From the IMG/VR virus record IMGVR_UViG_2671180275_000011: a stretch of DNA of 11,394 nucleotides; one strand, 5' to 3'. Position 1 is the stretch's first letter; each line of letters opens with the position of its first letter. Positions 1 through 3,000 of this stretch are shown in pieces. This DNA comes from a virus. Its lineage: Duplodnaviria > Heunggongvirae > Uroviricota > Caudoviricetes. The position numbers are program-made.

Positions 1-3000
1 ATGACAAAGGCGAAGTTAACGGATATTCAGATAAAGGCGTGGATAAAGGCCGGGGAACGCTTTGATGCCCGCGCCGATGGTAACGGCCTGTATTTGTGCT
101 TCCCTGAAAAATATAACGCCCCATTCTGGCGCTATCGTTACCGGATGGCCGGGAAACAACGTGCTATGCACATCGGCTCATATTCCGACCTGTCACTAAG
201 TAAAGCCCGCGCCACCGTTAAAGAACTGGCCGCCCGTGTTGCGCTGGGCCATGACGTGGCCGGAGAAAAGCAGGCCCGAAAAGCGGCGGCACTGGCACGG
301 ATTGAGGAAGAAAAAAACGCCCTTCGCGTGTCAGAACTGGCAGCCGAATACTACGAACGGCAAATACTACCCCGCTGGAAACATCCCGATATTCTCCGCC
401 GCCGCATAGACAAAGATATCAACCCTCAGATTGGCAGCCTGAAAGTCGAAGACGTTAAACCGCGCCATATTGACGCAATGCTACAGCGCATTATTGACCG
501 CGGAGCGCCAACAGTCGCCAATGATGTTTTGCGATGGACTAAACGGATATTCGACTACGCCATCAAACGCCACGCACTGGAAACAAACCCCGCCGCTGCT
601 TTTGAGTTATCAGATGCTGGTGGGGCTGAAAAAAGCCGCGACCGATGGCTAACCCGTGATGAACTCATTCATTTTTTTCAGGCCATGCGCACAGCTAAAG
701 GATTCAGCCGTGAGAATGAACTCACCATGAAACTGATACTTTGCCTTTGCTGCCGAAAAATGGAGTTGTGCGCCGCACAGTGGGATGAATTTGATTTAGA
801 TAGTGCTGTATGGCGACTCCCTGCCGAACGGGCTAAAAACGGGGATGCCATTGATATCCCACTACCGCCACCAGCGGTGGCATGGTTGCGCGAATTACAC
901 AGCATTTCAGGCGGTAGCCGCTGGGTGCTTCCGGCCCGCAAAATGCAACAGCGCATGATTCCACACATACAGGAAAGCACCCTGCCCGTTGCGCTGGCTA
1001 AGGTTCGCCGGGAAATGCCTGGTGTGCCGGGTTTTACCGTTCACGATTTCCGACGCACAGCCAGAACTCACCTTGCCGCGCTTGGGGTAGACCCTGTAGT
1101 GGCGGAACGCTGCCTGAACCACCGAATTAAAGGCGTTGAGGGTATCTATAACCGCCATCAGTATTTCAATGAACGCCGCCACGCTCTGGAGTTATGGGCC
1201 GACCTGCTGGTGGCTCTGGAACAGGGGGATGAATACAACGTAACCCCCATCACAAAAGCGATTGCAAAATAAAAACATACCGGGGATAGCGCGACGGCGC
1301 GAAAAGCGGGAAACCTTACCGCCTGCCCCGGTTTATTTTTAAGGTAGCGTCAAAGGTAACGTAAACCATGTATGAAAACACATACCCTATTGATACAGCC
1401 GCCAGCATACTGGGGTGTACTCAAAAAAAAATACTGACTGAATGGGCTAAAGGGACAATAAAAATCGCACTTGATTTCGGCCCGGAAAGTTCCATAAACC
1501 GCCAAAGCTACACGGATTACGACAAGTGGGGATATCCGGCCAAGCCGTGGAACATTGCCAGTATTTCAGCGCCAGCAACAAACGATTATTTCCCACCTGA
1601 ATTACTACAACCGGAAGAAGGGGAGAAACTCAGGCTTTTCCCCAATGACAACGAACCTGAATCAATATTGATTTGGAGAAATGTTTACCATCAATACTCA
1701 CAATCCGGGTTCTACTTTGACAGCAACCATAGTGACGCGCAGGTACATGACGGGAAACTTATGGTTGTATCGGATGTTCTCCTGTATGGCTTATGGACTG
1801 TACCTTACGCCGAGTTCTCGCGCGTTCACGCACAGGACACATTCACATTAAAACCGTACACCGATACCCCTTCACTGTCCAAAGTTACAGCAACCTTTAC
1901 ACCACGTGGCGGCTCACGCCGGATAAACGCCCCGGAAAAAAAGAATTTGCGCATTACCGATTCAGAAATGATGGTCATGCAAAAAATACTTGCACAAAGG
2001 CCCGGCTACCAGCGCACAGAACAACCGACAGATGACAGGAATCAGGAAAAGCATGATATACACGGCGGTGTGGAGCGATTCGCGCTGGAACGTGAAAAGG
2101 TTCTCGCGGCTGCCCTGTACGTGGCGTATCACTTCCCTAAAGATGTTGGCAAGACACTTAAATCACATGCCGAAGCCATAGAGAAACACGGTTATCTGTT
2201 CTGGGATGGCAATCCCACCCCAACACCTGACGCGGGACGAATAGCAAAAATATTATCTGATGCCAGACGCTTACCCAATGAATGGAAAATTTTGGGCGGA
2301 AACGCAAAAGCAAAAAGATAATTTTTTAATGAAATTGAAAGCATAAAAGCGTTTTTTTAATACATATGCCAGCATTTTAAAGAAACCGAAAACACCAATA
2401 AAAATGGCGACTAAATTTAGTCGCCTTTACTTTTTCTTGCCTTGCGTATAGCCTCCATTCAGCACCAAAACACTGTAAGAGGCTTTAATCATGGATACCT
2501 TACCCAAATCCGGCTATATGCGCCCGGCACAGGTGATAAACCATTTTCAGATTAGCGAATCGACGCTATGGAACTGGGTTAAAAAAGGTAAATTCCCCAG
2601 CCCGGATAAGCTGGGCGATGGCGTAAGCCGCTTTGATGTTTCCGCTATCCGCCAGTGGCTCGCTGACCGCAAAGGCACGACCAGCACGCGCAATTAACCC
2701 CGTCAGAGAATTTTAATCATGAAAATGCCAGAAAGGCCCGCAACAGGGCCGGGGCGTTCTCACGCCCAAAACAACCACCACACGCCCCACAGAATGGGCG
2801 GCAACCGCAAATATTGCTTGCCTGCCATCGCTGGTGGGCGTTATATTTCCCCGGCTGGTGTAAATCCACCAGCCGGGCGTGGAAACCCGTTTAATGAGCA
2901 AAAGGCGACACAGACGCGCCCAGCGTCTTTTTTTGTGTCGTGCCATCGCGCAACCATGAACAGCGGCAAGGCCCGCACTGTATCTATGGTGGCGCTGGTG

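What the first reader, a model, noticed from the sequence alone, without database searches (positions are those of the whole stretch)
2698..2955. Structured leader with a strong hairpin and an intrinsic terminator between alpA and the replication operon
About 260 bp separate alpA from the first plausible start of the downstream operon. They contain a perfect 10-bp hairpin (2851-2876) and a canonical terminator hairpin plus T7 (2912-2934). A terminator inside an operon leader implies regulated read-through. P4 controls its replication operon by premature termination guided by the small CI RNA cut from the same leader, so this leader may encode an analogous RNA or attenuator. It also argues that the ORF-track start at 2719 is not a real translation start.
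Basis: partly seen in the sequence, partly recalled or inferred. Interest (0 to 1): 0.55.

Follow-up and report, generated by a model that had tools for sequence, protein, structure and literature searches.

The report
P4-type antisense-RNA immunity leader, duplicated
The hairpin and terminator are real and form the leader of a well-known phage P4/P1-type antisense-RNA "immunity" switch that keeps a satellite island's replication genes off; the island carries two such switches in a row, and the genome record annotates neither.

Summary
Both structures exist. An 11-bp perfect palindrome lies at 2850-2877, the only one of at least 10 bp in the window. A 6-bp hairpin plus U7 lies at 2912-2934. 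Together they match Rfam isrK (RF01394) at 2854-2933, 62.6 bits against a cut-off of 50. P4's own seqA/terminator leader scores 60.8 bits on the same model.

A sigma-70-like promoter (2818-2847) ends about 7 nt upstream. A C4/CI antisense RNA follows at 2982-3069 (82 bits). Two exposed segments of that RNA are exactly complementary to a1 (2879-2885) and b1 (2898-2905) inside the finding. They also match a2 (3077-3083) and b2 (3108-3115), which cover the Shine-Dalgarno of a 65-aa Kil/Icd-like gene (ATG 3127). These three-way matches co-vary across 12 related loci with 10 specificities.

A second module with a different specificity lies at 3332-3781.

Its claim that the ATG at 2719 is not a real start is probably wrong. 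The long ORF matches P4 eta and stays open in every satellite examined where a co-directional gene precedes the module, even though the terminator is read in two different frames.

This is a new member of a known kind, of modest interest.

The parts
2491..2697 (+). alpA (68 aa HTH regulator/excisionase-type), the upstream co-directional gene
   Evidence: Pfam Phage_AlpA and HTH_17. PGAP calls it 'helix-turn-helix transcriptional regulator'.
2719..3324 (+). eta-like long ORF 1 (201 aa; PGAP starts it at 2725). It spans the internal promoter, the leader, the terminator and the C4 RNA, and ends with the nested kil-like gene.
   Evidence: There are 0 stops in this frame against 4 and 4 in the other two frames. 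The ATG sits 21 nt after the alpA stop in 9 alpA-adjacent relatives. Homologues at 45-97% identity cover the full length in Escherichia, Serratia and Klebsiella, and 83-88% of it in Salmonella, Plesiomonas and Providencia. The terminator is read in phase 2 or phase 0 in different loci. Pfam Phage_ASH covers residues 42-148, which is the translated RNA region.
2818..2847 (+). Internal sigma-70-like promoter (TTGCCT, 18 nt, TATATT), counterpart of P4 PLE and P1 P1c4
   Evidence: Promoter scan. The -10 element is conserved as TATATT, TACAGT, TACATT or TATAGT and aligns with the annotated P4 -10. It ends 7 nt before the start of the isrK model match.
2854..2934 (+). IsrK/seqA-type leader RNA (about 81 nt if terminated): the object of the finding
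   Evidence: Rfam RF01394 at 2854-2933, 62.6 bits against a gathering score of 50. P4's own leader scores 60.8 bits.
2854..2873 (+). 5' hairpin H1 (7 bp in the RNA; the DNA palindrome extends over 2850-2877)
   Evidence: 6 of 7 pairs have changes on both sides and 98.8% of cells are paired. G-U pairs are present, so the + strand RNA is the one that folds.
2874..2889 (+). Hairpin H2 (CGGG/CCCG) presenting target site a1 (GUGGAAA, 2879-2885) in its loop
   Evidence: One compensatory pair, seen in Providencia. a1 equals the reverse complement of a' in all 12 loci.
2898..2905 (+). Target site b1 (GCAAAAGG), single-stranded
   Evidence: An exact 8-nt complement of the C4 loop segment b' at 3026-3033. 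It co-varies with b' and b2 across 12 loci.
2912..2934 (+). Intrinsic terminator (6-bp stem, 5-nt loop, U7), homologue of P4 t1
   Evidence: The 5-bp GACGC/GCGTC core of the stem and the T-run are invariant in 12 loci, and the A-U closing pair is kept in 10 of 12. The sequence is near-identical to P4's gacgcgccacgcgtcttttttt.
2982..3069 (+). C4/CI-type antisense RNA 1 (b' 3026-3033 in a hairpin loop; a' 3041-3047 unpaired)
   Evidence: Rfam RF01695, 82.3 bits. MFE -51.5 kcal/mol, z = -5.1.
3077..3118 (+). Downstream targets a2 (3077-3083) and b2 (3108-3115), overlapping the Shine-Dalgarno AAGGAGG (3112-3118)
   Evidence: Only 1 of 5000 shuffles gives two C4 words of at least 7 nt with complements on both sides.
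3127..3324 (+). kil/icd-like gene 1 (65 aa), nested in the eta-like ORF
   Evidence: NCBIfam phage_ICD_like, 70.5 bits. 54% identical to the 65-aa P4 Kil reading frame.
3317..3781 (+). eta-like long ORF 2 (154 aa). Its ATG overlaps the stop of ORF 1 (ATGCTTAA). It spans the whole of module 2.
   Evidence: 0 stops against 8 and 7 in the other frames. PGAP calls it an 'Icd-like' CDS.
3332..3447 (+). Module 2 promoter (TTGATC, 18 nt, TATGAT, 3332-3361) and leader (3368-3447), with a1 UUAGCAG (3390-3396), b1 AACAUAG (3404-3410) and U7 (3441-3447)
   Evidence: isrK scores 36.6 bits, below the gathering score, like P1's own leader at 35 bits.
3472..3559 (+). C4-type antisense RNA 2 (b' 3517-3523, a' 3530-3536), of the P1/P7 type
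   Evidence: Rfam RF01695, 74 bits. z = -5.7. 75-82% identical to the P1/P7 c4 regions.
3561..3781 (+). a2 (3561-3567), b2 (3593-3599, abutting the GGAG Shine-Dalgarno), and kil/icd-like gene 2 (ATG 3611, 56 aa)
   Evidence: NCBIfam phage_ICD_like, 52 bits.
3774..7232 (+). Downstream translationally coupled genes: two unknown ORFs, a Toprim primase-like gene (4370-5413) and a DUF927 helicase-like gene (5394-7232). These are the presumed regulated cargo.
   Evidence: The first four junctions are of the ATGnnTGA/ATGCTTAA type, each preceded by a Shine-Dalgarno; the toprim and DUF927 ORFs overlap by 20 nt. Pfam Toprim_3 and DUF927.

Best explanation
The finding is the leader of a P4-type (P1 immI-type) antisense-RNA immunity module in a satellite-like island of E. 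coli.

Proposed mechanism:
1. Inferred from sequence: a constitutive promoter inside the eta-like ORF (2818-2847) starts an untranslated RNA at about 2854. This RNA folds into a 5' hairpin, then a small hairpin that displays site a1, then a single-stranded site b1, then a short intrinsic terminator (2912-2934).
2. Inferred: some transcripts stop there, giving an IsrK/SeqA-like RNA of about 80 nt. The rest read on and are processed into the stable C4/CI RNA (2982-3069).
3. Shown here by exact complementarity and three-way covariation: C4 segments a' and b' pair with a1/b1 in the leader and with a2/b2 over the ribosome-binding site of kil1.
4. Inferred from work on P4 and P1: pairing at a2/b2 blocks kil translation, so the untranslated RNA is terminated before the coupled primase and helicase genes. 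Pairing at a1/b1 raises termination at the leader terminator, which autoregulates C4.
5. Inferred from P4 eta: when transcription instead comes from upstream through alpA, ribosomes translate the long ORF straight through the leader, terminator and C4 sequences. The RNA structures cannot form and the lock is bypassed.

A second module of different specificity (3332-3781) repeats the arrangement. Both locks would have to be passed.
For: - Rfam: isrK 62.6 bits (above the gathering score) exactly on the finding; C4 at 82.3 and 74 bits.
- P4's own PLE leader and CI give the same pair of hits, 60.8 and 74.9 bits, and its terminator is near-identical.
- P1's annotated a1, b1, C4, a2, b2 and icd are colinear with module 2.
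- a1 = rc(a') = a2 in 12 of 12 type-1 loci. b1 = rc(b') = b2 exactly in 9 of 12; of the other three, L009 is kept through G-U wobble pairs and L015 and L016 each carry single-base mismatches. The 12 loci represent 10 specificities. The same holds in 5 type-2 loci.
- A 97%-identical island has switched the a specificity coordinately at all three sites.
- Within the window, two C4 words with complements on both sides arise in 1 of 5000 and 0 of 5000 shuffles.
- Covariation supports H1, and the terminator is invariant.
- A promoter-like site precedes each module, ending 7 nt before each isrK model start, and is conserved.
- For eta: the frame is open in all 12 modules examined that follow a co-directional gene (11, L018), plus P4, with the terminator read in two phases. 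It is closed in L015, L016 and P1, where the module starts its own transcription unit.
- The operon is translationally chained.
[quoted passage not shown] The Rfam C4 and isrK models hit Gram-negative PICIs, and eta translation prevents termination (PMC10111431).
Against: - There are no expression data. The transcription start, termination efficiency, C4 processing and eta translation are all inferred.
- The terminator stem never varies, so it has no covariation support. At 6 bp and -8.7 kcal/mol it is weak.
- A predicted antiterminator that would explain C4-dependent termination appears in this window (terminator probability 0.57 rising to 1.0 when a1/b1 are masked). It is not conserved, and in P4 the change is only 0.98 to 0.995.
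- Module 2's terminator is poor: a 4-6 bp stem with a loop of about 14 nt, and isrK below the gathering score.
- The homologues used for the ORF test were partly chosen through a search with the long ORF itself, which biases the sample.
- The primary P4 papers on t1 and eta/kil could not be read here. Those points rest on my recollection and on secondary summaries.
Confidence: 0.85

Rival explanations
1. The terminated short RNA (2854-2934) is mainly a trans-acting IsrK-type activator. It carries a1/b1, so it would titrate the a'/b' segments of C4 RNA (or open the long transcript). That would free the kil ribosome-binding site and switch the operon on, as shown for Gifsy-1 IsrK. This is not exclusive with the best explanation.
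For: The segment is a scoring member of the isrK family. In Gifsy-1, short IsrK binds the read-through transcript and activates translation more than 100-fold. The IsrK mutations G28A and G31A fall where a1 lies here, at +26 to +32 (PMC4825925). The short RNA contains both C4-complementary sites.
Against: In P4 the same element is described as a cis target that promotes termination and is needed for immunity, which is repression rather than activation (PMC3632133; PMC10111431). The stoichiometry of short RNA to C4 here is unknown. No expression data are available.
Confidence: 0.35
2. One reading: 2698-2955 is an untranslated leader of an operon transcribed from alpA. The terminator is an attenuator whose read-through is controlled by AlpA or by an RNA cut from this same segment. 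The ATG at 2719 is spurious.
For: The terminator lies between alpA and the replication genes. A P4-like RNA system is indeed present.
Against: A conserved promoter lies between alpA and the hairpin. The same leader and terminator occur without alpA upstream, in P4-like L016, Mu-context L015 and phage contigs. The antisense RNA lies outside the segment. The long ORF starting at 2719 is conserved, including through frame-compensating indels.
Confidence: 0.1
3. The region is purely protein-coding, as in the database annotations ('Ash family' or 'Icd-like' protein; PHROG 'transcriptional repressor'). On this view the hairpins are incidental.
For: Pfam Phage_ASH scores 94 bits on residues 42-148. 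PHROG 6928 has E = 4e-51. PGAP annotates only CDSs.
Against: The three-way nucleotide covariation changes the encoded amino acids freely. The terminator segment is read in two different frames. Stand-alone modules have the frame closed but keep every RNA feature. Covariance-model hits and hairpin covariation with G-U pairs point to RNA.
Confidence: 0.03

Closest known systems
Satellite phage P4 immunity region (PLE promoter, seqA, terminator t1, cI/CI RNA, seqC, nested kil/eta genes, downstream of vis)
   Same: The order of parts and the spacing are the same. The Rfam isrK and C4 hits come as the same pair. The terminator is near-identical. a-type and b-type sites occur on both sides of the RNA. 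Kil is 65 aa and 54% identical. A long ORF is open from the upstream AlpA-type gene. A primase operon lies downstream.
   Different: The pairing specificity differs (P4: GUGAGAA / UUCACAGG). P4 has an extra stretch of about 55 nt between terminator and CI. Here the primase is split into Toprim and DUF927 proteins. Here a second module follows in tandem. The N-terminal part of eta is unrelated.
Phage P1/P7 immI operon (P1c4 promoter, a1, b1, c4 RNA, a2, b2, icd, ant)
   Same: Module 2 is 75-82% identical to the P1/P7 c4 regions. It is colinear with the annotated a1, b1, C4, a2, b2 and icd. b2 overlaps the icd-type ribosome-binding site.
   Different: There is no ant gene downstream and no C1 operator. 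P1 has no long ORF over the leader; its icd frame is open only from 33 nt upstream. Module 2 lies inside a 154-aa ORF. The a/b specificity differs from P1.
Gifsy-1 IsrK / orf45 (STnc1160) / anrP locus of Salmonella (Hershko-Shalev et al. 2016, PMC4825925)
   Same: It founds the same Rfam family. A short terminated sRNA and a read-through form come from one promoter. A stable processed RNA lies downstream. The locus controls translation of a small ORF coupled to the next gene.
   Different: The context is a lambdoid prophage with an antirepressor downstream. There the short RNA is reported as an activator acting in trans. Here neither the direction of control nor Hfq dependence has been tested.

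Membership tests
Rfam isrK (RF01394) | Covariance-model score at or above the gathering score (50 bits) | tested here: met
   62.6 bits at 2854-2933. The module 2 copy at 3368-3446 scores 36.6 bits, so it does not meet this cut-off.
Rfam isrK (RF01394) | Three hairpins (5' hairpin, small second hairpin, terminator hairpin) followed by a U-run | tested here: met
   The model alignment, the RNAalifold consensus and the pair counts (98.5% of cells paired, 7 pairs with compensatory change) all agree.
Rfam isrK (RF01394) | Hfq binding | not testable with these tools
   Needs co-immunoprecipitation or a gel-shift assay.
Rfam C4 antisense RNA (RF01695) | Score at or above 45 bits and a long closing stem enclosing two hairpins | tested here: met
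   82.3 bits (2982-3069) and 74 bits (3472-3559). The MFE folds reproduce the model structure with z = -5.1 and -5.7. Both lie outside the finding's coordinates.
Rfam c4-a1b1 (RF03163) | Score at or above 46.7 bits | tested here: not met
   40.2 bits (2841-2893) and 29.2 bits (3355-3404). The features are present, but the score is below the gathering score.
P4-type RNA immunity system | The antisense RNA is complementary to one target upstream (seqA) and one downstream (seqC) of its own gene | tested here: met
   Exact complements of 7-9 nt on both sides in both modules, at most 1 of 5000 shuffles, and three-way covariation in 12 + 5 loci.
P4-type RNA immunity system | A constitutive promoter (PLE) upstream of seqA and inside the eta frame | tested here: inconclusive
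   A consensus-like site (9 of 12 matches) is conserved and aligns with the P4 -10. Its activity was not measured.
P4-type RNA immunity system | A Rho-independent terminator (t1) between the promoter and cI, with termination enhanced by CI pairing to seqA | tested here: inconclusive
   The terminator sequence is present and invariant. CI dependence cannot be tested here. The predicted antiterminator is not conserved.
P4-type RNA immunity system | Nested genes: kil (65 aa) as the first translated gene, and a long eta ORF beginning upstream of the promoter and coupled to the vis/alpA-type gene | tested here: met
   kil1 is 65 aa and 54% identical to P4 Kil. The long ORF is open, with a conserved ATG 21 nt after alpA. 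Translation itself was not shown.
P4-type RNA immunity system | Processing of the precursor to the mature RNA (RNase P, PNPase) and Rho-dependent termination downstream (timm) | not testable with these tools
   Needs RNA 5'/3' end mapping and rho or rnpA mutants.
P1 immI operon | An antirepressor gene (ant) translationally coupled to icd | tested here: not met
   The genes after kil2 are two unknown ORFs followed by primase and helicase genes. A close relative has antA upstream of module 1 instead.

The most novel reading that the evidence does not exclude
The island carries two orthogonal antisense-RNA locks in series, one of P4/CI type and one of P1/C4 type. Each lies inside its own read-through ORF, so replication-gene expression would need both locks opened (an AND gate).

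The exact specificity of lock 1 (an identical 22-nt b'-a' segment plus identical a and b targets) also occurs in viral contigs, one of them 89.9 kb long with a stand-alone promoter and a P1-Icd-like gene. The locks might therefore cross-talk in trans with co-resident phages or phage-plasmids. The island's RNA could silence their icd/ant operon, or their decoy leader RNA could help to unlock the satellite.
Probability: 0.2. Interest if true: 0.6.

Novelty: new member of a known kind. Interest (0 to 1): 0.3.

Why it matters
- It explains how this alpA-primase satellite island is probably kept silent. No protein repressor was recognised between alpA and the replication genes; the stretch holds two RNA switches.
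- The RefSeq record annotates neither RNA and calls two over-long 'Icd-like' proteins, and Pfam 'Ash' and PHROG 'transcriptional repressor' are largely translations of conserved RNA. Anyone using those labels would misread the locus.
- The comparative data give a clean natural experiment. Ten specificities arise from coordinated changes at three sites, and an ORF is kept open in two frames. This fits the P4 model that translation through the switch, not the peptide, is what matters.
- None of this changes the known paradigm.

Tried and rejected
- The search for related loci with an alignment of Kil/Icd proteins failed because no conserved stretch was available. With Kil1 alone, the single genome-contig scan gave only one locus, from E. 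albertii.
- A Kil-only protein search returned only short or alternative start calls of the same DNA. It could not serve as an unbiased test of ORF openness. I used three of those loci instead. One of them, L017, is cut by the contig end.
- Antiterminator hypothesis. In this window GGGCGUG (2875-2881) can pair with CGCGCCC (2915-2921). Masking a1/b1 raises the terminator probability from 0.57 to 1.0. The effect is not conserved, and P4 goes only from 0.98 to 0.995, so I do not claim it.
- An idea that module 2 has a GCGG/CCGC switch next to b1 got no thermodynamic support.
- The 8-nt complementarity between the C4-1 stem (2994-3001) and the 3' arm of H1 is not kept in relatives with other H1 sequences. 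I treat it as chance or paralogy.
- The match between the first hairpin loop of C4-1 and 3601-3608, near the kil2 start, is probably chance. I estimate about 0.07 such matches by chance, from the lengths of the two sequences (match seen).
- Searches of viral contigs for the module 2 specificity found no exact hit. All 93 gapped hits were chance matches.
- L021 has no megablast match in the phage collection.
- The minus-strand ORFs over the region have no Pfam hit.
- The primary P4 papers (PMC94026, PMC176756) are not held.
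Full report
**Where the window comes from.** The window is 100% identical to a chromosomal island of E. coli STEC strains such as 2012EL-2448. The island lies between yicC and dinD. Its gene order is integrase, an unknown gene, alpA (2491-2697), two CDSs that PGAP calls 'host cell division inhibitor Icd-like protein' (2725-3324 and 3317-3781), two unknown ORFs, a Toprim protein and a DUF927 protein. This is the layout of a P4-like or PICI-like satellite. The record annotates no RNA gene in this stretch.

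**Checking the observation.** The hairpin is real and slightly longer than reported: 11 perfect base pairs, 2850-2860 with 2867-2877, and a 6-nt loop. It is the only perfect hairpin of at least 10 bp in the window, against 0.06 expected in shuffles. The terminator is AGACGC/GCGTCT (2912-2917 with 2923-2928) followed by T7 to 2934, and folds at -8.7 kcal/mol. Generic measures are unimpressive. The terminator scan finds 25 sites against 17 expected, and the 81-nt leader has z = -2.0. The case therefore rests on homology and covariation.

**What it is.** An Rfam scan places isrK (RF01394) at 2854-2933 with 62.6 bits against a gathering score of 50, exactly over the hairpin and terminator.
- It places C4 antisense RNA (RF01695) at 2982-3069 with 82.3 bits.
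- The c4-a1b1 model falls just below its cut-off at 2841-2893.
- A second set follows: c4-a1b1 at 3355-3404, isrK at 3368-3446 (36.6 bits) and C4 at 3472-3559 (74 bits).
- A sigma-70-like promoter precedes each set, at 2818-2847 and 3332-3361. Each ends 7 nt before the start of the isrK match.
- Phage P4's own region gives the same pair of hits, isrK at 60.8 bits and C4 (its CI RNA) at 74.9 bits. Its terminator, gacgcgccacgcgtcttttttt-gtgtcg, is almost the same as the one here.
- Module 2 is 75-82% identical to the c4 regions of P1/P7-like phages. It is colinear with P1's annotated P1c4 promoter, a1, b1, C4, a2, b2 and icd. P1's own leader also scores only 35 bits on isrK.

**The RNA-RNA pairing.** In module 1, the loop segment b' of C4 (3026-3033, CCUUUUGC) is the exact complement of b1 (2898-2905) and of b2 (3108-3115). 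Site b2 overlaps the Shine-Dalgarno AAGGAGG of the ATG at 3127. The unpaired segment a' (3041-3047, UUUCCAC) is the exact complement of a1 (2879-2885) and a2 (3077-3083). Module 2 has the same design with other sequences: a = UUAGCAG and b = AACAUAG, with no a/b cross-match to module 1. Shuffling C4 gives two such double-sided matches in 1 of 5000 (module 1) and 0 of 5000 (module 2) trials.

The decisive test is comparative. I collected 12 type-1 modules from Escherichia, Salmonella, Serratia, Providencia, Plesiomonas, metagenome assemblies and P4.
- a1 = rc(a') = a2 in all 12.
- b1 = rc(b') = b2 exactly in 9. Of the other three, L009 is kept through G-U wobble pairs, and L015 and L016 each carry single-base mismatches.
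- The 12 loci represent 10 different specificities.
- Five type-2 modules behave the same way.
- An island 97% identical to this one has switched a from GUGGAAA to GUAGGAA at all three sites.

**Structure of the leader.** On an alignment of the 12 leaders, the 5' hairpin (RNA 2854-2860 with 2867-2873) has changes on both sides in 6 of 7 pairs. It includes G-U pairs, which identifies the + strand RNA. A second 4-bp hairpin (2874-2877 with 2886-2889) holds a1 in its loop and has one compensatory change. The 5-bp GACGC/GCGTC core of the terminator stem never varies, its A-U closing pair is kept in 10 of 12, its loop varies, and the T-run is at least 6 in every case. No shuffle reaches the observed covariation (0 of 500), and sliding the partners destroys it. 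The Rfam isrK consensus has the same three hairpins.

**The long ORF.** The comparative evidence points the other way.
- ATG 3127 lies in frame within ORF 2719-3324. It gives a 65-aa product with the NCBIfam Icd-like domain that is 54% identical to the 65-aa P4 Kil frame.
- The frame upstream of it has no stop back to 2719, while the other two frames have four each.
- Homologues of the whole 201-aa ORF exist at 45-97% identity, covering its full length in Escherichia, Serratia and Klebsiella and 83-88% of it in Salmonella, Plesiomonas and Providencia.
- The ATG sits 21 nt after the alpA stop in all nine alpA-adjacent relatives.
- The ORF stays open even when the middle part is replaced by a type-2 C4 (L006, L012).
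- The near-identical terminator DNA is read in phase 2 in four loci and in phase 0 in six. Indels restore the frame before C4, giving peptides such as TQTRPASFFVSCHR and TPDAASVFFIVAIS.
- In the three modules that begin their own transcription unit (L015, L016 and P1), the frame is closed within 1-11 codons of the kil/icd start, while every RNA feature is kept.

This pattern means the ORF is kept open but the peptide is not conserved. It matches what is described for P4: eta begins upstream of PLE, is coupled to the alpA homologue, contains kil, and its translation prevents termination (PMC10111431; Forti et al. 1999, from my recollection, since the paper is not held). Two caveats apply. Part of my sample was found with the long ORF as the query. 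Translation itself is not shown.

Module 2 lies in a similar 154-aa ORF whose ATG overlaps the stop of the first (ATGCTTAA). The next three gene junctions are ATGnnTGA overlaps preceded by Shine-Dalgarno sequences, and the toprim and DUF927 ORFs overlap by 20 nt.

**Mechanism.**
- Shown: the parts, their order, the pairing potential and its co-evolution.
- Inferred from P4, P1 and Gifsy-1:
  - The internal promoter is constitutive.
  - Part of its transcripts end at 2934 as an RNA of about 81 nt. The rest yield C4 after processing.
  - C4 bound to a2/b2 blocks kil translation. The naked RNA is then terminated before the primase and helicase genes.
  - C4 bound to a1/b1 increases termination at the leader terminator and so limits its own synthesis (Briani et al. 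2000, cited in PMC4825925; details from my recollection).
  - Transcripts that arrive from alpA are translated through the region and escape.

I looked for a conserved antiterminator that would explain C4-dependent termination. One is predicted in this window, but it is not conserved. The short RNA may also act in trans as a decoy for C4, as Gifsy-1 IsrK does. I rate this as a non-exclusive rival.

**Comparison with what is known.** The equivalence of IsrK with seqA and of C4 with CI is stated in the literature (PMC3632133; PMC4825925). Hits of both Rfam models in Gram-negative PICIs have been reported (PMC10111431). Similar cassettes occur in 1906 plasmid records. The finding is therefore a new member of a known kind. 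Three things may be less well known:
- the tandem arrangement of two modules with different specificity, seen here, in L018 and, as a second C4 copy, in L013;
- the frame-independent conservation of the read-through ORF;
- the occurrence of module 1's exact specificity in three viral contigs, one of 89.9 kb.

**Verdict.** The P4-type RNA control is right. The RNA gene lies outside the given coordinates, the leader has its own promoter, and the claim about the 2719 start is probably wrong. Interest is modest.

Noticed in passing
window 2735-2767: Two adjacent GC-rich hairpins (GGCCC/GGGCC and GGGCG/CGCCC; -22.1 kcal/mol, z = -4.2) lie 16 nt after the ATG at 2719, inside the finding's coordinates. 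They are conserved in all nine relatives where the ORF follows alpA, with one compensatory change. They are absent where the ORF follows ant or bro genes, and absent in P4. Their function is unknown; they could be an AlpA operator or an RNA element.
   Followed up: partly
window 1279-1344: An int-alpA RNA motif (Rfam RF02996, 64.2 bits) lies just after the integrase gene. It is also present in seven related loci (L004, L006, L009, L011-L014).
   Followed up: no
window 10081-10162: PGAP annotates a tRNA-Tyr here, near the dinD end of the island. Rfam tRNA gives 35 bits, but ARAGORN finds no tRNA in the window. It may be a degenerate or att-site tRNA fragment.
   Followed up: partly
L018 (E. coli JNEC-KY203) 2740-4546: In a 97%-identical island, an antA/AntB gene is inserted between alpA and module 1. 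The a specificity of module 1 has switched at a1, a' and a2 together. A 1-nt difference fuses the two long ORFs into one 326-aa frame.
   Followed up: partly
L019, L020, L021 (IMG/VR contigs of 32.8, 56.8 and 89.9 kb): The same 22-nt b'-a' segment as module 1 occurs in viral contigs, with matching a-type and b-type target sites on both sides. In L019 and L021 the downstream b site matches over 7 of 8 nt. L019 and L021 have an AT-rich stand-alone promoter and a P1-Icd-like gene. This predicts cross-reaction with the island's C4-1 RNA.
   Followed up: partly
window 3058-3096 and 3546-3581: The 3' strand of each C4 closing stem (GUCACCGCC; GUCUCGC) can also pair with a sequence just downstream (GGCGGUGAC; GCGAGAC). 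That forms an alternative hairpin with a2 in its loop. P4 and P1 have the same feature, so the unprocessed transcript may have two folds.
   Followed up: no
window 2905-2943: An outer stem (GCGACAC / GUGUCGU) encloses the terminator hairpin and the U-run (-18.2 kcal/mol) and is conserved without variation. It could form only in read-through transcripts. Its role is unknown.
   Followed up: no
window 2842-3163 as translated (residues 42-148 of the long ORF): Pfam Phage_ASH (PF10554) and several PHROG 'transcriptional repressor/regulator' families match the translation of the leader and C4 RNA region. These protein families may largely reflect conserved RNA sequence.
   Followed up: partly
window 2848-3130 against PLSDB: Related cassettes occur in 1906 plasmid records, 1373 of them predicted conjugative, and not only in phages and satellites.
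   Followed up: no
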